This document shows, one piece after another, positions 7,552-25,267 of a DNA stretch of 32,000 nt (the stretch's first letter is position 1; the number at the start of each line of letters is the position of its first letter). This DNA is from Polyangiales bacterium (GTDB lineage Bacteria > Myxococcota_A > Polyangia > Polyangiales > Polyangiaceae). Position numbers and translations under genes: made by a program. The stretch covers positions 59-32,058 of the forward strand of contig JBBQWQ010000078.1 of the NCBI GenBank assembly GCA_038210445.1, given 5' to 3'. The notes under the pieces were generated by a model that saw only the letters and a list, made by a program, of their open reading frames with translations, did not search any database and was not told the origin of the DNA.

Positions 7552-7903
7552 ACGAAGGCCGAGTCCGTGACGACGGCGGCGATCACGCGCCGCGCTTCCA
7601 CATCGCCCGCGCGCGGCACGAGGCTGCGGCGTTCTCCTCCGAACGCGCCTTGACAATTTGTGGGTAGCGGTCACATTGCTTCGGCGCACGATCGCCGTGC
7701 CGCAGAACGGAGGTGGATCATGTGCCCTATTGCAAACGACGGTTTCCGGTCTGCCTCTCGCGACGCATCGTGAACGCCTGACGCACGCCCTCGCAACCGC
7801 GAGGCGACGCGATGGCTCGCTCTGCACGCGGGAGGTTTTCTCTCGTGTGATTTCGCGCGAGGCGTGAGCAGAGCTCGCGGCCGCGCGCGCGGAGCCGTCG
7901 AAA

Positions 7904-8224
7904 ATGAAGCAGGATATGAGTCGCCTCGTTCGCCTCGAGGTGGTGCTGCGTGACGAGTTGGTGGGAATTTTGAAAGACGATGTCCACGATCCCCGCGTTC
8001 GCGAGGTTCGGATCGTGGCGCTCACGCTGTCGGTGGACTACCGGCATGCGCGGGTTCACTTCACGTTGAAAGGAGACGATCCCAAGGAGGTCCAGGCGGC
8101 GCTCGCGCGCGCCGCACCCTTCGTACGTTCGCTATTGTCACAGGGCACCCCGCTCAAGCGCACGCCGGAGCTGCGCTTTCTCTTCGCGGGTCACCGCAGC
8201 GAGGAGGAGCCACGTTCCGAGTGA
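7904..8224 (+). CDS. rbfA: ribosome-binding factor A (30S maturation factor)
   Basis: 106 aa. Matches the RbfA pattern: R..R.E..L...L......DPR, V.(I)V.L.LS.DYRHARVHF, and L.RA.PF.RS.L...L.L.RTPELRF. Confidence 0.8.
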   Translation: MKQDMSRLVRLEVVLRDELVGILKDDVHDPRVREVRIVALTLSVDYRHARVHFTLKGDDPKEVQAALARAAPFVRSLLSQGTPLKRTPELRFLFAGHRSEEEPRSE

Positions 8225-9390
8225 TCGCCAGCGCGGCAGAAGGCCGGGGCATTCCCATCCGCAGCTGGGCCGAGGATCTCGACAACGAGACTTTGGCGCA
8301 GCTGAGGCGCATCGCCCGGGCGCCCTATGTTCGGCACTTCGTATGCGCAATGGCCGACGCGCACCTCTCGGAGCACGTCGCCGTGGGGAGCGTGTTCGCT
8401 GCCGAACGCACCGTGGTGCCGTCGGCGCTCGGCGGTGATCTCGGGTGCGGCATGCTGGCGGTGCCGCTGGAGGACGCTTCCGGGGCCGCTCTCGATACGA
8501 GCGGTCTCGGTCCGGCCGAACGAAGGAGGCTCCTCGAGCGCTGGCTCGCGAGCATCCCGGTGGGCAAAGGGCTCCGCCGCGGGCGCGCCCTCCCCTTCGC
8601 GCCGGAGCCGGAAGCGTCGCAGGGCCTCTTCGAGCGCAACCTCTCTACCCGGAGCCTGGAGAAAGCCCGGAAAGCGCTGGTGGCAAAGCACATCGGCACA
8701 CTGGGCGGCGGCAACCACTTCGTGGAGCTCGGGTGCGACCCCGAGCAGCGCGCGTGGCTCTTGGTGCACTCCGGCTCTCGCGGCCTCGGCGCCGCCATCG
8801 CCGACCACCACCGGGGCGCGGAAGGTGCGCCGCTCGCGGGCCTCTCCACCCGCACCGAGAAAGGAAGTGCCTACCTGGCCGACCTCACCTGGGCACTGGA
8901 TTTCGCCCGCGCGAATCGCATGCATATTGCACGTGTTGCTGCGCGCGCCCTGGAAGAGGTGGTGGGCCATCCGCTGGTCCACGGCCCGCCGGTCGACGTG
9001 CACCACAACTTCGTGGCCGAGGAGGTCTGGTTCGGCGAGCGCCTCTTCGTACACCGCAAGGGCGCCATCGCTGCACCTGCGGGGGGCTTGGCACTGGTGC
9101 CAGGCTCCATGGCGACCGCCAGCTACCTGGTGGCGGGCCTCGGCTGCGAAGCGGCGTTCGGCTCGTGCTCACACGGAGCCGGGCGCGTTCTTCGGCGCAG
9201 CGAGGCGCGGCGAAAAATTCGCCCGGAGGCGCTCCGCCGCGCGCTCGGCGACGTGGTGATTCCAGACGGCGACGCGATGGTCGAAGAGGCGCCCGCGGCC
9301 TACCGCGACATCCGGAAGGTGCTGGAGGCACAGGAGGATCTGGTGGAGCGACGGCTCCGCCTCGAGCCACTGGTTGTTCTGAAAGGGTGA
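8221..9390 (+). CDS. rtcB: RNA 3'-phosphate/2',3'-cyclic-phosphate ligase RtcB
   Basis: 389 aa. RtcB blocks present: MADAHLS, GGDLGCGM, GTLGGGNHFVEL, HSGSRGLG, HHNF, HRKGA, PGSM, CSHGAGR and a C-terminal VVLKG. The GTG start overlaps the rbfA stop (GTGA). Confidence 0.92.
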   Translation: MIASAAEGRGIPIRSWAEDLDNETLAQLRRIARAPYVRHFVCAMADAHLSEHVAVGSVFAAERTVVPSALGGDLGCGMLAVPLEDASGAALDTSGLGPAERRRLLERWLASIPVGKGLRRGRALPFAPEPEASQGLFERNLSTRSLEKARKALVAKHIGTLGGGNHFVELGCDPEQRAWLLVHSGSRGLGAAIADHHRGAEGAPLAGLSTRTEKGSAYLADLTWALDFARANRMHIARVAARALEEVVGHPLVHGPPVDVHHNFVAEEVWFGERLFVHRKGAIAAPAGGLALVPGSMATASYLVAGLGCEAAFGSCSHGAGRVLRRSEARRKIRPEALRRALGDVVIPDGDAMVEEAPAAYRDIRKVLEAQEDLVERRLRLEPLVVLKG

Positions 9391-21663: not shown

Positions 21664-22212
21664 TCACGCGACCTGGACCCGTTCATCGTCCGCCGCCCGC
21701 CCTTCGGTCGCGCAGTAGTCGCGCCAGACCGGCGGAATTTCCCGTACGGATTGGATGATCGGAACCAGCGGCAGGGTCTGGGGCTTGAAGGGCTTTCGAA
21801 CCAGCTTCATCCCCGCCTCCTCCGGCGTACGGCTCCCCTTTCGATCGTTGCACGGATAGCAAGAGGTCGAGATGTTCTCCCACACCGTCTTTCCGCCGCG
21901 AAGGCGGGGCACGACGTGATCGTAGTTCAGCTCGCTCATGCTCTTCCGCACGCCGCAGTACTGGCAGCGGAAGCCGTCGCGCGTGAACACATTCATGCGC
22001 GAGAAACGCACCTTGTGCTTCTTCGCCACGCCTCCTCGGGTCAGGCGCACCACGGCCGGCATCTTGATGGTGACGGACGGTGCGACAATGGCATCTTCGT
22101 ACTCCTCGAGCACTTGCACCTTGCCGAGAAAGGCCAGGGTTACGGCGCGTTGCCAGGAGATGACGCGGTGCGGAGACATCCACGGAGTAAGCAACAAGGT
22201 ACGTGTGGACAT
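21664..22212 (-). CDS. HNH endonuclease
   Basis: 182 aa from MSTRTLLLTPW. HNH core CQYCG...LNYDHVVPRLRGGKTVWENISTSCYPCNDRKG. The ATG at 22212 is preceded by AGAGAGG inside a long polypurine leader. Confidence 0.85.
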   Translation of the reverse strand: MSTRTLLLTPWMSPHRVISWQRAVTLAFLGKVQVLEEYEDAIVAPSVTIKMPAVVRLTRGGVAKKHKVRFSRMNVFTRDGFRCQYCGVRKSMSELNYDHVVPRLRGGKTVWENISTSCYPCNDRKGSRTPEEAGMKLVRKPFKPQTLPLVPIIQSVREIPPVWRDYCATEGRAADDERVQVA

Positions 22213-22325
22213 GGCTTTACCTCTTTCTCTTCTTTCTCTTTCTTTCCATGACAGTTCCTCTTCCTTTCGAACAAGATGACTCGAGCTCGCGAGTCCGAAC
22301 CGGACCACGCACGCGTATCTGCCGG

Positions 22326-22398
22326 TGGGTCATCTGCGAATCGAACGCAGTGCAGGCTCCGTATCAGAGAGCCCAGGGTAACCAACCCGTCATGACCC
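22326..22398 (-). tRNA. tRNA-Ile (anticodon GAU)
   Basis: Minus strand: GGGTCAT GA CGGG-TTGGTTAC-CCTG G GCTCT-CTGATAC-GGAGC CTGCA CTGCG-TTCGATT-CGCAG ATGACCC A. 7-bp acceptor and canonical T-loop. G8 replaces U8. No encoded CCA. Confidence 0.75.
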
Positions 22399-22544
22399 AG
22401 GCGCACATGAGCTCGCCATTCCGCAAATGAAGCGATGCCAAGGGCCGCCGAGAGAGCCTGCTCTACCGTTGAGCTACGCGCCTTCAAGCAGGCGCGACGG
22501 GACTCGAACCCGCAACAATGTACTCCCAGCTTCATGCATCGCAG
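22399..22544 (-). ncRNA. YrlA-like Y RNA candidate 1 (circularly permuted tRNA-like module)
   Basis: Minus strand: ...ATGAAGC TGGGAGTACATTGTT GCGGG-TTCGAGT-CCCGT CGCGCCT GCTTGA AGGCGCG TA GCTC-AACGGTA-GAGC A GGCTC...GCTTCAT... A canonical T arm is followed by the 3' acceptor strand, a 6-nt cap, the 5' acceptor strand (7 bp perfect), U8 A9 and a canonical D arm. The distal ATGAAGC/GCTTCAT 7-bp helix joins the 5' and 3' parts. It lies same-strand, downstream of rsr, between tRNA-Pro and tRNA-Ile. Exact ends are unknown. Confidence 0.6.
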
Positions 22545-22617
22545 TCTGAACGCCGAGATTCGAACTCGGATCGACTGGTCCCGAACCAGTCACTCTACCA
22601 GGTTGAGCTACATCCAG
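22545..22617 (-). tRNA. tRNA-Pro (anticodon CGG)
   Basis: CTGGATG TA GCTC-AACCTGGTA-GAGT G ACTGG-TTCGGGA-CCAGT CGAT CCGAG-TTCGAAT-CTCGG CGTTCAG A. C1-G72, G37 and A73 as in bacterial tRNA-Pro. Two G:U pairs in the acceptor. Confidence 0.85.
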
Positions 22618-22706
22618 AAGGAAGAGAGGCAGCAAAAGGAGCGAAGACCGTGTGCCTTGCGGCACCGAGTACGAGTCGGTGTAGTCCTCGCGAGCATCTG
22701 CCTCAG
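22618..22706 (-). ncRNA. structured 89-nt spacer, possible small RNA (not tRNA-shaped)
   Basis: Outer helix GAGGCAG (22704-22698) / CTGCCTC (22632-22626). Second helix GCGAGGAC / GTCTTCGC (8 bp, one G:U). Two inner hairpins: CCGA-CTCGTAC-TCGG and TGCC-GCAA-GGCA (GNRA loop). Confidence 0.3.
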
Positions 22707-22779
22707 AGCCGCCTGCGGGAGTTGCACCCGCGGATCCCTCGTTACGAGTGAGGGCGCTCCGCTCCAGAGCGAAGGCGGC
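22707..22779 (-). tRNA. tRNA-like, Thr (anticodon CGU), non-canonical
   Basis: GCCGCCT TC GCTC-TGGAGCG-GAGC G CCCTC A-CTCGTAA-C GAGGG ATCC GCGGG-TGCAACT-CCCGC AGGCGGC T. Perfect acceptor, but an A31:C39 mismatch (or a 9-nt loop) and a T-loop with G55. Confidence 0.55.
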
Positions 22780-22871
22780 GTAGTTGACCGTCAAGAGTCG
22801 GGGAGACACGAAACCGCCTGGCCTGCTTCGCGAGCAGGTTCGGTCGTCCGAGATTCGAGCTCGAGGGTCAG
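22780..22871 (-). ncRNA. possible third permuted tRNA-like element (weak)
   Basis: TCGAG-CTCGAAT-CTCGG (T-arm-like), ACGACCG, an inserted hairpin CCTGCT-CGCGA-AGCAGG, then CGGT(TT)CGT, which can pair back to ACGACCG. A short closing helix TGACC/GGTCA joins the ends. There is no room for a normal cloverleaf. Confidence 0.25.
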
Positions 22872-22942
22872 AGCGACAACCGGGAATCGCACCCGGATCC
22901 CGAGAGTGGCGCTCTCGAATTCTACTGTTGAACCATTGTCGC
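22872..22942 (-). tRNA. tRNA-like, Gly (anticodon GCC), non-canonical
   Basis: GCGACAA TG GTTC-AACAGTA-GAAT T CGAGA-GCGCCAC-TCTCG GGAT CCGGG-TGCGATT-CCCGG TTGTCGC T. Acceptor and anticodon stems are perfect and U73 fits Gly. C33 replaces U33, the D-loop lacks GG, and the T-loop has G55. Confidence 0.6.
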
Positions 22943-22973
22943 AATCACACAGCGCGGCGAGGGCGCCGCACAG

Positions 22974-23046
22974 AGCCACCGCCGAGACTTGCACTCGGCG
23001 TTTCCTCCGTACCGGGGAGGCGCCCCGCTCTCTGGGCTTCGGTGGC
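22974..23046 (-). tRNA. tRNA-like, Thr (anticodon GGU), non-canonical
   Basis: GCCACCG AA GCCC-AGAGAGCG-GGGC G CCTCC-CCGGTAC-GGAGG AAACG CCGAG-TGCAAGT-CTCGG CGGTGGC T. All four stems are perfect. A8, C33, a D-loop without GG, and a T-loop with G55. Confidence 0.55.
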
Positions 23047-23121
23047 AAGAACGTGCGCTCGGCAGCAAGGGGTTACGGAGACTTCGTTTTGTGAGTGTAG
23101 TCCCCGCAGCATCTGCCGCGG

Positions 23122-23202
23122 TGGGTAGCCCCGGAGTCGCACCGGGTGTGGTGAACCAAGCGTGTTACAAGCGCCCTCCGCTCTCTACGGAAATAGCTAC
23201 CC
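23122..23202 (-). tRNA. tRNA-like, Tyr (anticodon GUA), class II with long variable arm, non-canonical
   Basis: GGGTAGC TA TTTCCGTAGAGAGCGGAG GGCGC-TTGTAAC-ACGCT TGGTTCACCACA CCCGG-TGCGACT-CCGGG GCTACCC A. 7-bp acceptor, A73, and a 12-nt variable arm (TGG-TTCA-CCA) as in bacterial tRNA-Tyr. C31:A39 mismatch, D-loop without GG, G55. Confidence 0.55.
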
Positions 23203-23294: not shown

Positions 23295-24875
23295 TCACGC
23301 GAGACAGATGCTCTGGATGGTGGATACCCAGTGCGCCGCGTCGAGCTCACCCCGCACGAACTGCGCGATGAGGTCGAACACGGCGTCGGAGAAGCCACCG
23401 ACGTTGAGCACGTCGCTCCGCTCGTACATCTGCGTGCTCGCCGAAGGCTGCAAGTCGATGAGCACGAGCTTTGCGTTGGGGTTGCGCGCGCGGAAGATCT
23501 CCCACTCGTCGGCCATGGCGGTGGCGCGGCCTGCGCCCGGCCCGCGGAAGTCCACCCAGGACTGATTGTCCGAGATGTAAACCACGAGATCGCCCTGGAC
23601 CTTGCGCCGGTTCATCGCCCGAAGGGGCGCGCTGCAGGCGGTGCCTCCGCTGGGGAGGCTCGCCAGCCGCTCGGCGTTGGTCATAACCGAATCCATGGGG
23701 TTGAGCGGATGCGCCATGGTCACCACGTCGTCGCTGAAGGGGATGACCTCCGCCGACGCGTTGCGCCGGAGGCAGGTCGCCGATACGAGCGCGGCGACGT
23801 CGATGCAGCGGGCTGCGGAGGTGGCGCCCTTGCGGAAGCCGGTCACCGCGCTGTGCATCGAGCCGGAGACGTCTGGCGCGAGGTACACCTTGCCCACCAC
23901 CACGGGCACGTTCTCGATAGCGATTTCCATCGCCTCCTGGACGGCCCGGGTGATCTCCGGCGGCATCTCGGCGCTCGCCGCCCGGAAGGTGGCCATGAGC
24001 TGGTACGGGAAGACCCGTGCCCGCCGTACCGCTCCCGGATCCCGCAGCTTGCTCGCGACCAGCGCGACCAGGCTGGGGTCGGCGAAGACCCCGTGACGGA
24101 GCAGCGTGTTGAGGTTCATCCGGAGCTGGGTGAACGTCATTCGCTCGGCGAGGGTGGCCCACTGCCGGGTGTCGAGGCCGCAGGCGGTGAGCATCTCGAA
24201 GGGCACGTCGGGGAGCTCCCCCTCGCCCTTCTTGAACGCCTCGAACGCCCGCACCGTCGCCGGGAGCACTTCGGCACGGACGTCCTTCCCGATGAGGTAG
24301 CCGTAGAGGGCCTCCCGAACGACGTCGACCTCGCCGGACGCTGCCTTGGGAGAAGGACGCACCATCTTGATGACGTCCTTCATCGAGGGAGCGTTGCCCA
24401 GCGACTGCCGAAAGATGGTCTCCGGCGATCGCCCCGCGAACCAGGCCCGAAGCAAGCGCTTCGGCGCCGATCCGAAGGACTTTCGCCCCACCGCACCGGA
24501 ACGCACGATCTGAACGAAGTTCCGGAGCATCTTGCCGTTGTCTACGACCCGCGCAAACACCCGCGCGAGCATGTGGACGTCGCGCGCCGCGAGGACCGCC
24601 AGCAAGAAAGCGGGCATGTCCTTCATGAGCGCGCGCTCCCGCGCGAACACGGCAGTCTTGGCCACGAAGGCCGGGTCTGCCTGGCTCGCAAGGGTGATGA
24701 CGCGGGAGAGCTGGTCGCCCTCCGAGGCGTAGAACGTGCGGCCGAACGTGCCGGTCGCGGCGTACTGCGCCAGCGCGTGCTCCGGCGAGGACGCGTATGC
24801 GCGGCCTCCGGCCTGGTTGTTGGTATTCGCCGCCATCGCCTTGGATGCCGGCGCGAAAACAGTCTTGCTTGCCAT
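23295..24875 (-). CDS. rsr: Ro60-related protein Rsr (TROVE domain plus vWA/MIDAS)
   Basis: 526 aa from MASKTVFAPASK. The ATG at 24875 is preceded by AAGGAGGA. N-terminal TNNQAGGRAY and helical-repeat TROVE region. C-terminal vWA domain with MIDAS DVSGSM...SDN. The upstream 33 codons of ORF 23295..24974 overlap a tRNA-like gene and were not used. Confidence 0.9.
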   Translation of the reverse strand: MASKTVFAPASKAMAANTNNQAGGRAYASSPEHALAQYAATGTFGRTFYASEGDQLSRVITLASQADPAFVAKTAVFARERALMKDMPAFLLAVLAARDVHMLARVFARVVDNGKMLRNFVQIVRSGAVGRKSFGSAPKRLLRAWFAGRSPETIFRQSLGNAPSMKDVIKMVRPSPKAASGEVDVVREALYGYLIGKDVRAEVLPATVRAFEAFKKGEGELPDVPFEMLTACGLDTRQWATLAERMTFTQLRMNLNTLLRHGVFADPSLVALVASKLRDPGAVRRARVFPYQLMATFRAASAEMPPEITRAVQEAMEIAIENVPVVVGKVYLAPDVSGSMHSAVTGFRKGATSAARCIDVAALVSATCLRRNASAEVIPFSDDVVTMAHPLNPMDSVMTNAERLASLPSGGTACSAPLRAMNRRKVQGDLVVYISDNQSWVDFRGPGAGRATAMADEWEIFRARNPNAKLVLIDLQPSASTQMYERSDVLNVGGFSDAVFDLIAQFVRGELDAAHWVSTIQSICLA

Positions 24876-24915
24876 GATGCGTCCTCCTTTCCGTAGTTTC
24901 TTCATGTGAAGTGGG

Positions 24916-24986
24916 TCTTCCTGCCGCGATTCGAACGCGGACAACGAGCTTCGGAGGCTCGTGCTCGGATCCACCGAGACAAGAAG
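24916..24986 (-). tRNA. tRNA-like, Arg (anticodon CCG), irregular D/anticodon arms
   Basis: CTTCTTG T CTCGG-TGGAT-CCGAG CA CGAGC-CTCCGAA-GCTCG TTGT CCGCG-TTCGAAT-CGCGG CAGGAAG A. Canonical T arm and a 7-bp acceptor (one G:U). The D arm is a 5-bp stem with a 5-nt loop and the variable region is short. Confidence 0.55.
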
Positions 24987-24998
24987 CCGTGAACGTAG

Positions 24999-25067
24999 AG
25001 AGCCGAGAGGGAATCAAACCCTCCTGCGCAGGGTTGCAATCTGCGCGCCTCATCAGAGAATCGGCTC
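24999..25067 (-). tRNA. tRNA-like, Cys (anticodon GCA), shortened D arm
   Basis: GAGCCGA TT CTC-TGAT-GAG G CGC GCAGA-TTGCAAC-CCTGC GCAG GAGGG-TTTGATT-CCCTC TCGGCTC T. Perfect acceptor, and U73 is the Cys discriminator. 3-bp D stem with a 4-nt loop, A31:C39 mismatch, T-loop with U56. 69 nt. Confidence 0.45.
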
Positions 25068-25086
25068 GATGCGTCGAGCGACGCAG

Positions 25087-25157
25087 AGCGGGCAGCGAGA
25101 ATCGAACTCGCATCAACGGGGTGGAAGCCCGTGGCCCGACCATTGGACCATACCCGC
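25087..25157 (-). tRNA. tRNA-Gly (anticodon UCC)
   Basis: GCGGGTA TG GTCC-AATGGTC-GGGC C ACGGG-CTTCCAC-CCCGT TGAT GCGAG-TTCGATT-CTCGC TGCCCGC T. Canonical cloverleaf with U73. Confidence 0.9.
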
Positions 25158-25186
25158 GAAGAACCGCGCGCCGCGAAGCGCGCAGG

Positions 25187-25257
25187 TGGAGCCGGCGAGA
25201 CTCGAACTCGCATCGCCCGGGTGCAAGCCGGGAACTCTGCCGTTGAGATACGGCCCC
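25187..25257 (-). tRNA. tRNA-Ala (anticodon UGC)
   Basis: GGGGCCG TA TCTC-AACGGCA-GAGT T CCCGG-CTTGCAC-CCGGG CGAT GCGAG-TTCGAGT-CTCGC CGGCTCC A. The G3:U70 identity pair and A73 are present. Confidence 0.9.
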
Positions 25258-25267
25258 AGGAAATCCG

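What the first reader, a model, noticed from the sequence alone, without database searches (positions are those of the whole stretch)
22707..23202. Recurrent, correlated core deviations in the tRNA-likes downstream of rsr: G55 T-loops and GG-less D-loops
Four consecutive genes downstream of rsr have T-loops of the form TGCRAnT, i.e. G at position 55 where U/pseudouridine is nearly universal: Tyr TGCGACT, Thr-GGU TGCAAGT, Gly-GCC TGCGATT, Thr-CGU TGCAACT. The upstream Phe gene has TGCGAGC. Three of them (Tyr, Thr-GGU, Gly-GCC) also lack the G18G19 dinucleotide that normally docks onto positions 55/56. All stems remain intact, often perfectly paired. The same substitution recurring in intact cloverleaves looks like a selected alternative elbow rather than random decay. 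It would alter recognition by TruB, and possibly by elbow-reading factors such as RNase P, the ribosome and T-box-like readers. I do not know of a described bacterial tRNA family with this signature.
Basis: seen in the sequence. Interest (0 to 1): 0.8.

Follow-up and report, generated by a model that had tools for sequence, protein, structure and literature searches.

The report
tRNAs with a rewired elbow (A18–G55)
Five tRNA genes clustered around a bacterial Ro60 (rsr) gene replace the near-universal G18/U55 elbow contact by a covarying A18/G55 pair; the same conserved switch is found in related bacteria and in phage tRNA sets, so these look like working tRNAs with an alternative corner, not decaying copies.

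Summary
On the minus strand, Tyr, Thr(GGU), Gly(GCC) and Thr(CGU) downstream of rsr, plus Phe upstream, have U54-G55-C56 T-loops. Covariance-model alignment keeps the canonical register.

The refinement is that their D-loops are not simply GG-less. They carry A18-G19. G19-C56 is therefore kept, and only the inner 18/55 contact changes, from G18·Ψ55 to A18·G55.

Across 80 rsr loci, 90 of 799 array tRNAs are G55, in more than 20 anticodon families. Essentially all have A18. The Gly(GCC) member is conserved in 13 loci, with 12 of 21 stem pairs showing compensatory changes. Synthetase identity elements are retained. Some uncultured phage contigs carry arrays that are almost entirely A18/G55 (18 of 18 in one).

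The switch matches the generic T-loop motif (UGNRA plus an intercalated adenosine) and the T- and D-loops of the TYMV tRNA-like structure.

Staphylococcal non-proteogenic tRNAGly have UGC T-loops and lack G18G19. Those differ, however, in losing G19 and in having weak EF-Tu stems.

Best reading: these are functional accessory tRNAs in a phage-type tRNA array fused to an Rsr/Y-RNA operon. Their elbow cannot be modified by TruB. It is perhaps insulated from T-loop-directed attack, but that purpose is only inferred.

The parts
23120..23202 (-). tRNA-Tyr(GUA)-like gene, class II. T-loop UGCGACU (G55 at 23140); D-loop UAGAGAG (AG, no GG); irregular 3-4 nt junction between the acceptor stem and the D-stem.
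   Evidence: ARAGORN at -ps90; MFE cloverleaf; conserved in L001 while the flanking spacers diverge.
23060..23118 (-). Short Y-RNA-like hairpin 1: CGGCAG-AUGCU ... CUUG-CUGCCG. It starts 2 nt after the Tyr gene.
   Evidence: Motif scan; fold; compensatory G/A:C/U change against L001; the same motif forms tandem arrays after rsr in 80 loci.
22974..23046 (-). tRNA-Thr(GGU). T-loop UGCAAGU (G55 at 22992); D-loop AGAGAGCG (A18-G19); A8; C33.
   Evidence: Rfam tRNA model, 43.1 bits. Orthologues with the same D-arm and T-arm in L010, L018, L021 and L023, and a further Thr(GGU) G55 gene with a different D-arm in L012. One difference from L001.
22871..22942 (-). tRNA-Gly(GCC). T-loop UGCGAUU (G55 at 22890); D-loop AACAGUA (A18-G19); C33; full bacterial GlyRS identity set.
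   Evidence: ARAGORN; Rfam 48.8 bits; family of 13 sequences with 12 of 21 pairs compensatory.
22706..22779 (-). tRNA-Thr(CGU). T-loop UGCAACU (G55 at 22725); D-loop UGGAGCG (A18-G19 by model alignment); A31·C39 mismatch.
   Evidence: ARAGORN; Rfam 34.9 bits.
22627..22703 (-). Short Y-RNA-like hairpin 2: AGGCAG-AUGCU ... UUUG-CUGCCU. It lies directly 3' of Thr(CGU).
   Evidence: Motif scan; fold with z = -2.98.
22544..22617 (-). tRNA-Pro(CGG) with a canonical UUCGAAU T-loop.
   Evidence: ARAGORN and Rfam, 59.2 bits.
22429..22542 (-). YrlA-type Y RNA with a tRNA-like domain and a canonical GG/UUC elbow. It lies directly 3' of Pro(CGG).
   Evidence: Rfam RF02553, 67.4 bits, E = 2.8e-14. This is just under the 69-bit gathering score.
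22324..22398 (-). tRNA-Ile(GAU), canonical T-loop.
   Evidence: ARAGORN.
21664..22215 (-). HNH endonuclease gene at the distal end of the array.
   Evidence: Pfam HNH_5/HNH; phrog_16726, 2.3e-34. Homologous HNH genes sit inside most related arrays.
23295..24875 (-). rsr, the Ro60 orthologue (TROVE + vWA_Ro60), 526 aa.
   Evidence: Pfam; homologues in Polyangiaceae, Pendulispora and Labilithrix.
25690..25763 (-). tRNA-Phe(GAA)-like gene. T-loop UGCGAGC (G55 at 25709); D-loop GUCGAAGGA.
   Evidence: ARAGORN at -ps95; exact search.
24998..25067 (-). tRNA-Cys(GCA)-like gene with the second elbow variant: T-loop UUUGAUU (U56) and a D-loop containing GA (G18-A19).
   Evidence: ARAGORN at -ps95; the 19-56 covariation rule fits 24 of 25 UUU-type tRNAs.
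24914..26133 (-). Upstream half of the array. It holds Lys, Asn, Asp, Trp, His, Ala, Gly(UCC) and Arg with canonical T-loops, plus the Phe and Cys variants listed above.
   Evidence: ARAGORN and Rfam.

Best explanation
These are genuine accessory tRNA genes under purifying selection that very probably can be aminoacylated. They belong to a phage-type tRNA array built around the rsr (Ro60)/Y-RNA operon of a Polyangiaceae bacterium.

Their elbow is rewired. A18 replaces G18 as the base that intercalates into the T-loop, and G55 replaces U/Psi55 as its partner. The outer G19-C56 pair is kept.

This turns the tRNA-specific T-loop (UUCRA with an intercalated G) into the generic T-loop motif found in riboswitches and rRNA (UGNRA with an intercalated A). 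The valine-accepting plant-virus tRNA-like structures have the same T-loop (UGCAACU) with a D-loop carrying AG (CAGU). The L-shape and the flat outer face should therefore be preserved.

Shown: the sequence pattern, its conservation, the covariation, and the retained identity elements.

Inferred, structural consequences: these tRNAs cannot receive Psi55 (TruB) or Gm18 (TrmH). They should still be processed, charged and delivered by EF-Tu.

Inferred, less securely, the purpose: to give the array a tRNA pool that does not depend on, or is not recognised by, factors that read the canonical inner T-loop. T-loop-cutting tRNase toxins are one such factor. This fits the RNA-damage and repair gene context of these islands.
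For: 1. Register and presence. Covariance-model alignments place G at position 55 and A at position 18.

2. Recurrence. In 80 rsr loci, 90 of 799 array tRNAs are G55: 80 of 359 in Myxococcota and 10 of 439 elsewhere. They fall in more than 20 anticodon families.

3. Covariation. GG is absent from 65 of 90 G55 D-loops but from only 52 of 703 U55 D-loops (Fisher p = 5e-42). The rule '(18,55) is G·U or A·G, and 19-56 is Watson-Crick' fits 136 of 140 UGC tRNAs. Only about 25 would fit if D-loops were drawn from UUC tRNAs (maximum 39 in 500 draws). Rare UGU and UGG T-loops pair with AA and AC D-loops.

4. Selection. The Gly(GCC)-G55 gene is present just downstream of rsr in 13 loci. Twelve of its 21 pairs show compensatory changes, and A18-G19, U54-G55-C56 and the anticodon are invariant. 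Against L001 (about 89% nucleotide identity), the tRNA genes are nearly unchanged while the spacers are scrambled.

5. Chargeability. Ala has G3:U70 with A73 in 13 of 13. Gly has G1-C72, C2-G71, G3-C70 and U73 in 16 of 20. His has G-1 with C73 in 4 of 4. The G55 Met genes have the initiator-type C1xA72.

6. EF-Tu. The T-stem pairs of the Gly family (C50-G64, G51-C63) match the 'tight' pairs of proteogenic tRNAGly, not the weak A-U set of the staphylococcal non-proteogenic tRNAs (PMC7826273).

7. Translation-type use. Viral contigs carry arrays that are 18 of 18, 13 of 15 and 10 of 11 A18/G55, spanning many amino acids. These have U33 in 58 of 61 and intact identity elements. Myxophage Mx1 has the same module of array, HNH and Rsr, with one G55 Met gene.

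8. Structural precedent. The UGNRA T-loop with a near-universal intercalating adenosine is documented (bioRxiv 10.1101/2022.12.26.521914). The Tymo_tRNA-like consensus is UGCAACU/CAGU, and the TYMV D/T-loop association is described as nearly identical to that of tRNA (PMC4810234).

9. Context. RtcB, SPFH/Band-7, ARPP and HNH genes lie inside related arrays. A T-loop-cleaving tRNase toxin is known (CdiA-CT E479, PMC9086364). Phage tRNAs are known to evade tRNA-targeting defences (PMC10264068, PMC11555353).
Against: There are no expression, processing, charging or modification data, so everything functional is inferred.

The window's own copies are more deviant than the phage ones. Gly(GCC) and Thr(GGU) have C33, Thr(GGU) has A8, Thr(CGU) has an A31·C39 mismatch, and Tyr has an irregular D-arm junction. 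Efficient decoding by these particular genes is therefore uncertain.

The evasion or insulation purpose has no direct support. No T-loop-specific nuclease was identified in these loci. Ro-encoding actinophages have no G55 tRNAs (0 of 68), so G55 is not a general property of Ro-linked arrays.

The housekeeping tRNAs of the same genome could not be retrieved for comparison.
Confidence: 0.62

Rival explanations
1. Non-ribosomal ('non-proteogenic') amino-acid donors, as in staphylococci. On this reading the G55 tRNAs are charged but kept out of translation, and they feed aminoacyl-tRNA-dependent transferases.
For: The UGC T-loop signature is the same as in S. aureus and S. epidermidis non-proteogenic tRNAGly (PMC7826273, PMC13443448). 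The most conserved G55 gene next to rsr is a tRNAGly. C33 occurs in 9 of 13 Gly(GCC) family members, while the anticodon and the GlyRS identity set stay invariant. A GNAT gene lies beside one array (L009).
Against: G19-C56 is retained, whereas the staphylococcal tRNAs lose both G18 and G19. The T-stem pairs are of the tight EF-Tu type (compared with PMC7826273). G55 spans more than 20 anticodon families and whole phage tRNA sets with U33. No Fem-type, cyclodipeptide-synthase or MprF-type gene was seen in the arrays sampled.
Confidence: 0.13
2. Uncharged tRNA-like decoys or ligands of the Rsr/Y-RNA machinery. [quoted passage not shown] They would tether or titrate an elbow-binding protein.
For: They sit inside the rsr operon. 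Tyr, Thr(CGU) and Pro are each followed within 0-3 nt by a Y RNA. Several have deviant anticodon loops and deviant cores. The effector that binds YrlA is expected to be an elbow-binding tRNA protein (bioRxiv 10.1101/312249).
Against: Acceptor-stem and discriminator identity elements and the anticodons are conserved, which a decoy would not need. YrlA itself keeps the canonical GG/UUC elbow. A18/G55 tRNAs also form complete-looking sets in viral contigs. Of the three most G55-rich, only L173 has an Rsr homologue in the stretch held.
Confidence: 0.1
3. Decaying tRNA pseudogenes in a redundant array, with the recurrent G55 being a shared inherited mutation without function.
For: Some copies in the window carry additional defects: an A31·C39 mismatch, C33, and an irregular Tyr D-arm. 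ARAGORN and Rfam miss some of them at default settings.
Against: G55 is always matched by A18, across more than 20 anticodon families and two phyla plus phages. Twelve of 21 pairs are compensatory in the Gly family. The genes are nearly invariant against diverged spacers.
Confidence: 0.03

Closest known systems
Staphylococcal non-proteogenic tRNAGly (NP1-3; S. epidermidis tRNAGly Ia/Ib)
   Same: These are bacterial tRNAs whose T-loop reads UGC (or UGU) in place of T-Psi-C. They lack the canonical G18-G19 and Psi55, and they are still charged by GlyRS (PMC7826273, PMC13443448).
   Different: The staphylococcal tRNAs lose both G18 and G19 (D/U at position 19). They have weak EF-Tu T-stem pairs (A49-U65, U50-A64, A51-U63). 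They are limited to the UCC glycine acceptor and to staphylococci, and they serve Fem transferases. Here G19-C56 is kept, A18 covaries with G55, the T-stems are of the tight type, and more than 20 anticodon families are involved.
Generic T-loop motif (UGNRA with an intercalating adenosine) of riboswitches, rRNA and RNase P
   Same: The five-nucleotide loop sequence is the same (U-G-N-R-A), and the base donated from the partner loop is an adenosine (bioRxiv 10.1101/2022.12.26.521914).
   Different: That motif is described as excluding tRNA, which uses U at loop position 2 and an intercalated G. Here the generic version sits inside otherwise ordinary tRNAs. The geometry was not tested.
Valine-accepting viral tRNA-like structures (TYMV TLS; Rfam RF00233)
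   Same: The family consensus has the T-loop UGCAACU, which is identical to that of Thr(CGU) here, and a D-loop CAGU carrying AG. The TYMV D/T-loop association is described as nearly identical to that of canonical tRNA, and the family is described as engaging aminoacyl-tRNA synthetases, eEF1A, modification enzymes and RNase P (PMC4810234).
   Different: Those are 3'-terminal pseudoknotted elements of eukaryotic RNA viruses, not free bacterial tRNA genes. No evolutionary link is implied.
tRNA array units of mycobacteria, their plasmids and phages; phage tRNA-rich regions
   Same: Both are dense accessory tRNA clusters that are redundant with chromosomal tRNAs. Both have an embedded conserved HNH endonuclease and are regarded as possible anti-defence (PMC12803027, PMC5966550). 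Phage tRNAs carry changes that evade tRNA nucleases (PMC10264068).
   Different: The reported evasive changes are in anticodon loops. Elbow changes are not mentioned. The sampled actinophage arrays have 0 of 68 G55. The window's array has 18 genes, which is below the formal 20-gene definition.
Bacterial Rsr/Y-RNA (YrlA) loci and Rtc-type RNA repair operons
   Same: The locus has rsr with a YrlA RNA within 4 kb. Y RNAs next to tRNA genes have been noted before (PMC4201824; bioRxiv 10.1101/312249). RtcB is in the same neighbourhood in related loci.
   Different: The described loci have one or a few Y RNAs and no large tRNA arrays with variant elbows. Here up to 33 tRNAs and up to 7 tandem Y RNAs flank rsr.

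Membership tests
tRNA (Rfam RF00005 / canonical cloverleaf) | Scores above the family gathering threshold with a full-length alignment. | tested here: met
   Gly 48.8, Thr-GGU 43.1 and Thr-CGU 34.9 bits against a gathering score of 29. Tyr and Phe are found only by ARAGORN at lowered thresholds.
tRNA (Rfam RF00005 / canonical cloverleaf) | Conserved G18-G19 and U54-U55-C56 elbow nucleotides. | tested here: not met
   A18 and G55 are present in all five genes. G19, U54, C56 and A58 are kept.
tRNA (functional, chargeable) | Synthetase identity elements in the acceptor stem, discriminator and anticodon. | tested here: met
   The Gly, Ala, His, Thr and Pro identity sets are conserved in G55 genes. 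Actual charging was not testable.
Staphylococcal-type non-proteogenic tRNAGly | UGC/UGU in place of UUC in the T-loop. | tested here: met
   PMC7826273.
Staphylococcal-type non-proteogenic tRNAGly | Loss of both G18 and G19 (no 19-56 pair). | tested here: not met
   G19 is retained and C56 is retained. The 19-56 pair covaries as a Watson-Crick pair.
Staphylococcal-type non-proteogenic tRNAGly | Weak EF-Tu T-stem pairs (A49-U65, U50-A64, A51-U63). | tested here: not met
   The Gly(GCC)-G55 family has C49-G65, C50-G64 and G51-C63.
Staphylococcal-type non-proteogenic tRNAGly | Use by Fem-type aminoacyl transferases. | not tested
   No Fem-like gene was seen in the sampled arrays. The rest of the genome is not available.
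tRNA array unit (Tran et al. definition) | At least 20 tRNA genes at a density of at least 2 per kb. | tested here: inconclusive
   The window has 18 tRNA(-like) genes in 3.8 kb, so the density criterion is met and the count falls just short. Related loci reach 33-37 genes.
Rsr/YrlA locus | A TROVE + vWA Ro60 orthologue with a YrlA RNA within 4 kb. | tested here: met
   Pfam. YrlA scores 67.4 bits with E = 2.8e-14, which is 1.6 bits under the Rfam gathering score, and lies 753 nt from rsr.
Generic T-loop motif (UGNRA + intercalated A) | Loop sequence U-G-N-R-A with an adenosine supplied by the partner loop. | tested here: met
   The sequence pattern is met in 136 of 140 UGC tRNAs.
Generic T-loop motif (UGNRA + intercalated A) | Three-dimensional intercalation of A18 between positions 57 and 58. 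| not testable with these tools
   No RNA 3-D modelling or probing was available.

The most novel reading that the evidence does not exclude
A18·G55 tRNAs form a distinct, widespread class of 'orthogonal-elbow' tRNAs carried by phages and mobile tRNA arrays. Some phages encode entire decoding sets of them, and Polyangia have fixed a subset inside their Ro60/Y-RNA RNA-repair islands.

The switch would create a tRNA pool that folds without Psi55 or Gm18. It would also be blind to enzymes or toxins that read the canonical inner T-loop. The element (or its phage ancestor) could then keep translating while canonical tRNAs are attacked. The attacker might even be a nuclease that the element itself encodes. 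The conserved array HNH protein is one candidate, since it shows a weak resemblance to PtuB.
Probability: 0.3. Interest if true: 0.8.

Novelty: new variant of a known kind. Interest (0 to 1): 0.66.

Why it matters
G18, G19, Psi55 and C56 are treated as the invariant core of tRNA. Natural exceptions have been regarded as isolated oddities, such as the staphylococcal cell-wall tRNAs and mitochondrial tRNAs.

This study gives a clean natural covariation (G18·U55 to A18·G55, plus Watson-Crick swaps at 19-56). It is seen in about 150 tRNAs of more than 20 anticodon families from two bacterial phyla and from phages.

Three things follow:
- The tRNA elbow is shown to be interchangeable with the generic T-loop motif.
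- tRNA finders and annotation pipelines get a concrete reason for missing such genes.
- There is now a testable handle on what the inner elbow pair is read by: TruB and its chaperone role, TrmA, TrmH, and T-loop tRNases.

The work also documents that bacterial Ro60 genes in Polyangia and Acidobacteriota are embedded in large tRNA arrays with tandem Y RNAs, RtcB and HNH genes. That links Ro60 biology to tRNA supply and tRNA damage.

Tried and rejected
1. Register shift or alternative fold restoring UUC/GG. Rejected: covariance-model alignments keep the canonical register.

2. Chance hairpins. Rejected by shuffles.

3. Pseudogene decay. Rejected by compensatory changes and covariation.

4. G55 as a general property of Ro-linked phage arrays. 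Rejected: 0 of 68 tRNAs in Streptomyces phage LukeCage and Mycobacterium phage Rizal.

5. Membership of the staphylococcal non-proteogenic family. Rejected on the G19 and EF-Tu-stem criteria.

6. A dedicated EF-Tu for these tRNAs. Its family is widespread in Polyangia, and in the one other context examined (L205) it is not array-linked. No link could be established.

7. Retrieval of Burroughs & Aravind 2016 (RNA repair systems) failed because the paper is not held. Whether that paper already noted tRNA arrays next to ROT/TROVE genes could not be checked.

The accepted pattern selects only one T-stem sequence, so it gives presence and no unbiased frequency. Only 17 of its 123 matches lie in called tRNAs.

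Full report
**What is in the window**

The window is 68% G+C. Its Ro60 protein is 97% identical over the aligned 94% to one from a Polyangiaceae metagenome-assembled genome, and 70-72% identical to Pendulispora and other Polyangiaceae homologues (68% to Labilithrix luteola by tblastn).

All relevant genes lie on the minus strand.
- rsr (TROVE + vWA_Ro60, 23295-24875) is flanked by a dense array of tRNA and tRNA-like genes.
- Upstream are Lys, Asn, Phe, Asp, Trp, His, Ala, Gly(UCC), Cys and Arg.
- Downstream are Tyr, Thr(GGU), Gly(GCC), Thr(CGU), Pro and Ile.
- An HNH endonuclease gene follows.
- A YrlA-type Y RNA lies between Pro and Ile (Rfam 67.4 bits, E = 2.8e-14).

Consensus scans give one promoter-like site upstream of Lys and one terminator-like hairpin after the HNH gene. 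This is compatible with a single long transcription unit but does not prove one.

**Checking the observation**

All have U54-G55-C56-R57-A58.

When the region is searched alone, Rfam's tRNA model scores Gly(GCC) at 48.8 bits, Thr(GGU) at 43.1 and Thr(CGU) at 34.9. All are above the 29-bit threshold and are aligned end to end in the standard register, with G opposite the model's U55. That test therefore fails to refute.

Such hairpins occur five times in the array and once elsewhere in the 32 kb. Shuffled sequence gives 0.28 on average.

The statement about 'GG-less D-loops' needs one correction. The same alignments, and comparison with orthologues, show A18-G19 and not an absence of both guanines: Gly AACAGUA, Thr(GGU) AGAGAGCG, Thr(CGU) UGGAGCG, Tyr UAGAGAG, Phe GUCGAAGGA. 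G19 and C56 are kept.

**Is it selected?**

I fetched 80 rsr loci from reference genomes and ran ARAGORN on them. Large same-strand tRNA arrays of up to 33-37 genes flank rsr in Polyangia/Labilithrix and also in Acidobacteriota (Pyrinomonadaceae and Blastocatellia).

Of 799 array tRNAs, 90 have G55: 80 of 359 in Myxococcota loci and 10 of 439 in the others. They spread over more than 20 anticodon families.

G55 goes with A18. GG is missing from 65 of 90 G55 D-loops and from only 52 of 703 U55 D-loops (Fisher p = 5e-42). The 25 G55 D-loops that do contain GG mostly read AGG or GGAG, which still allows A18-G19.

A position-aware rule was then tested: the 18/55 pair is G·U or A·G, and 19-56 is Watson-Crick. 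It fits 136 of 140 UGC-type tRNAs, pooling the bacterial and viral sets. Only about 25 fit when D-loops are drawn from UUC-type tRNAs, with a maximum of 39 in 500 draws.

A second, independent covariation appears in the same arrays. T-loops reading UUU (U56) go with G18-A19 D-loops in 24 of 25 cases, against 6.9 expected. The window's Cys gene (24998-25067) is one of them. Rare UGU and UGG T-loops pair with AA and AC D-loops.

The Gly(GCC)-G55 gene sits just downstream of rsr in 13 loci.
- Twelve of its 21 stem pairs show double, pair-preserving changes.
- A18-G19, U54-G55-C56, A58, the GCC anticodon and the GlyRS identity set (G1-C72, C2-G71, G3-C70, U73) are invariant.

L001 is a relative with about 89% nucleotide identity. 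Against it, the tRNA genes differ at 0-6 positions while the spacers are barely alignable.

Random decay is excluded.

**Are they likely to be charged and used?**

Identity elements are intact in G55 genes:
- Ala: G3:U70 with A73 in 13 of 13.
- His: encoded G-1 with C73 in 4 of 4.
- Thr: G1-C72 and C2-G71 in 7 of 7.
- Pro: C1-G72 with A73.
- Met: the G55 genes carry the initiator-type C1xA72 mismatch.

In S. aureus, proteogenic tRNAGly carry the high-affinity EF-Tu pairs C50-G64 and G51-C63, whereas the cell-wall tRNAs have a weak A-U set (PMC7826273). The Gly family here has the high-affinity pairs.

A scan of viral contigs for one G55 T-arm sequence returned at least 120 loci. ARAGORN finds 63 G55 tRNAs in 17 of them, and the D-loops listed nearly all carry the AG dinucleotide. 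Three contigs carry arrays that are 18 of 18, 13 of 15 and 10 of 11 G55, covering many amino acids. These have U33 in 58 of 61 and intact identity elements.

A phage that carries an array made up almost entirely of such tRNAs is very likely translating with them.

Myxococcus phage Mx1 has the same module as the window: a tRNA array, an HNH gene, an Rsr 46.5% identical, and a downstream tRNAGly. It includes one A18/G55 Met gene.

In contrast, the Ro-containing regions of Streptomyces phage LukeCage and Mycobacterium phage Rizal have no G55 among 68 tRNAs. The trait is lineage-specific and not tied to Ro as such.

**How the variant elbow most likely works**

In canonical tRNA:
- U54·A58 closes the T-loop.
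- G18 intercalates between positions 57 and 58 and contacts Psi55.
- G19-C56 forms the flat outer face (PMC7912444).

Outside tRNA, the T-loop motif has the consensus UGNRA, and the intercalating base is almost always adenosine. tRNA is singled out as the exception, with U at loop position 2 (bioRxiv 10.1101/2022.12.26.521914).

The array tRNAs have therefore swapped the tRNA-specific inner pair for the generic one.

The valine-accepting viral tRNA-like structures have the consensus T-loop UGCAACU and D-loop CAGU. The D/T-loop association in the TYMV crystal structure is described as nearly identical to that of tRNA. The element engages synthetases, eEF1A and RNase P (PMC4810234).

From this I infer, without having tested it, three things:
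- The A18·G55 elbow preserves the L-shape and the G19-C56 platform used by RNase P, the ribosome and T-boxes.
- It abolishes the TruB substrate (U55) and the TrmH substrate (G18).
- It changes what any inner-T-loop reader would see.

**Why have it?**

This part is the least secure. The gene neighbourhood is that of RNA damage and repair.
- RtcB, SPFH/Band-7, ARPP-1, a methyltransferase, DUF6847 and a conserved HNH endonuclease lie inside related arrays.
- The same Ro/Band-7/vWA/HNH/tRNA theme appears in actinophages.
- Mycobacterial tRNA array units likewise have an embedded HNH gene and are regarded as possible anti-defence (PMC12803027).
- Phage tRNAs are known to escape anticodon nucleases through loop mutations, or simply to replenish cleaved tRNAs (PMC10264068, PMC11555353).
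- At least one toxin cuts the T-loop between the conserved T and Psi (CdiA-CT E479, PMC9086364).

The array tRNAs in general carry other evasive-looking changes. C33 occurs in 13 of 90 G55 genes and in 41 of 277 U55 genes in Myxococcota arrays.

My preferred reading is that the A18/G55 switch gives part of the accessory pool an elbow that needs no host modification and is not recognised by factors specific for the canonical T-loop.

The alternatives are staphylococcal-style non-ribosomal donors or Rsr-bound decoys. Both are less consistent with the retained G19-C56 pair, the tight EF-Tu stems, the conserved identity elements and the near-complete G55 phage arrays. Neither is excluded for the window's own, more deviant copies.

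**Comparison with what is known, and novelty**

The U54-G55-C56 signature itself is not new. It has been described for staphylococcal cell-wall tRNAGly since the biochemical sequencing cited in PMC7826273 (see also PMC13443448).

I could not find the following in the searchable literature:
- the specific A18/G55 covariation with G19-C56 retained;
- its spread over many isoacceptors and whole phage tRNA sets;
- its concentration in tRNA arrays built around bacterial rsr genes.

I therefore class this as a new variant of a known kind.

**Limits**

ARAGORN structure calls were used for the large tables. Position 18 was inferred from loop context, except where covariance-model alignments were available. 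The viral sample was selected by a G55 pattern and gives no frequency. No expression or biochemical data exist. The housekeeping tRNAs of the same genome were not available.

Noticed in passing
window 23060-23118 and 22627-22703 (minus strand): Two short Y-RNA-like hairpins share the Rsr-binding-type architecture of YrlA: a 6-7 bp stem, AUGCU on the 5' side, and YUUG on the 3' side. In the whole window the strict motif occurs only three times, all in the array; the third hit is YrlA. Hairpin 1 shows a compensatory change against L001.
   Followed up: partly
window 23118-23120, 22703-22706, 22542-22544: Each Y RNA begins 0-3 nt after the 3' end of a tRNA gene (Tyr->Y1, Thr(CGU)->Y2, Pro(CGG)->YrlA). 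tRNA 3' processing would therefore define the 5' end of the Y RNA, or the two could stay fused. The same adjacency recurs in L001, L004, L008, L010, L026, L028, L029 and L079.
   Followed up: partly
L024-L080, about 7600-8800 (just downstream of rsr): Tandem arrays of 2-7 Y-RNA-like elements, about 60-145 nt each, follow rsr in Acidobacteriota, Verrucomicrobiota and other loci. The motif is NGNCGA-AUG...YUUG-UCGNCN, with 193 hits in 80 loci. This is many more Y RNA paralogues per locus than in the described systems.
   Followed up: partly
window 25445-25577 (minus strand): A probable divergent YrlA paralogue lies between Asp and Trp. It shares AUGCAGCUUGGAGUACAU with the YrlA 5' part and has a closing stem GAAGUGA/UCACUUC. 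Rfam did not report it.
   Followed up: partly
window 24998-25067; L032, L053, L059, L065, L075-L078 and others: A second elbow variant: T-loop UUU (U56) with a G18-A19 D-loop, which is a Watson-Crick swap of the 19-56 pair. It recurs in Lys(UUU), Val(UAC) and Ala(UGC) of Acidobacteriota arrays and in Cys(GCA) of Myxococcota arrays. A third class has U55 but only a single G in the D-loop (Pro, Ile and Trp, for example AACGCAA).
   Followed up: partly
L006 4635-5873; L205 10001-11167: A divergent EF-Tu paralogue lies inside one Polyangiaceae array next to rsr. The paralogue family is large in Polyangia. In the one other genomic context examined (L205, Labilithrix sp.) it is a stand-alone gene, not in a tuf operon and not next to rsr.
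   Followed up: partly
L028 1493-2671, L060 3614-4861; L002, L018, L019; L009, L014: RtcB RNA ligase, SPFH/Band-7 proteins, ARPP-1 domain proteins, DUF6847 and a SAM-methyltransferase are interleaved with the tRNAs in related rsr arrays. The window itself has only the HNH gene.
   Followed up: partly
window 22974-23046 and orthologues in L010, L018, L021, L023; window 22706-22779: The Thr(GGU)-G55 family has A8 in place of the near-invariant U8, while A14 is kept. The window's Thr(CGU) has U14. Non-U8 and C33 are frequent throughout the Myxococcota arrays, including among U55 members, although position 8 is less reliably parsed.
   Followed up: no
window 26230-26420 (minus strand): Upstream of the array there is a G+C-rich stretch with repeated GGGAACGGGACCGGGAAC-type units and an inverted CCCGCTCCCGCT segment. 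Its meaning is unknown.
   Followed up: no
window 21664-22215: The array's HNH protein matches a phage HNH family over nearly its whole length (phrog_16726, 2.3e-34). It also matches PtuB, the HNH subunit of Septu/retron-Eco7, only weakly (1.4e-07). PtuAB of retron-Eco7 depletes tRNATyr. The resemblance may be no more than a shared HNH core.
   Followed up: no
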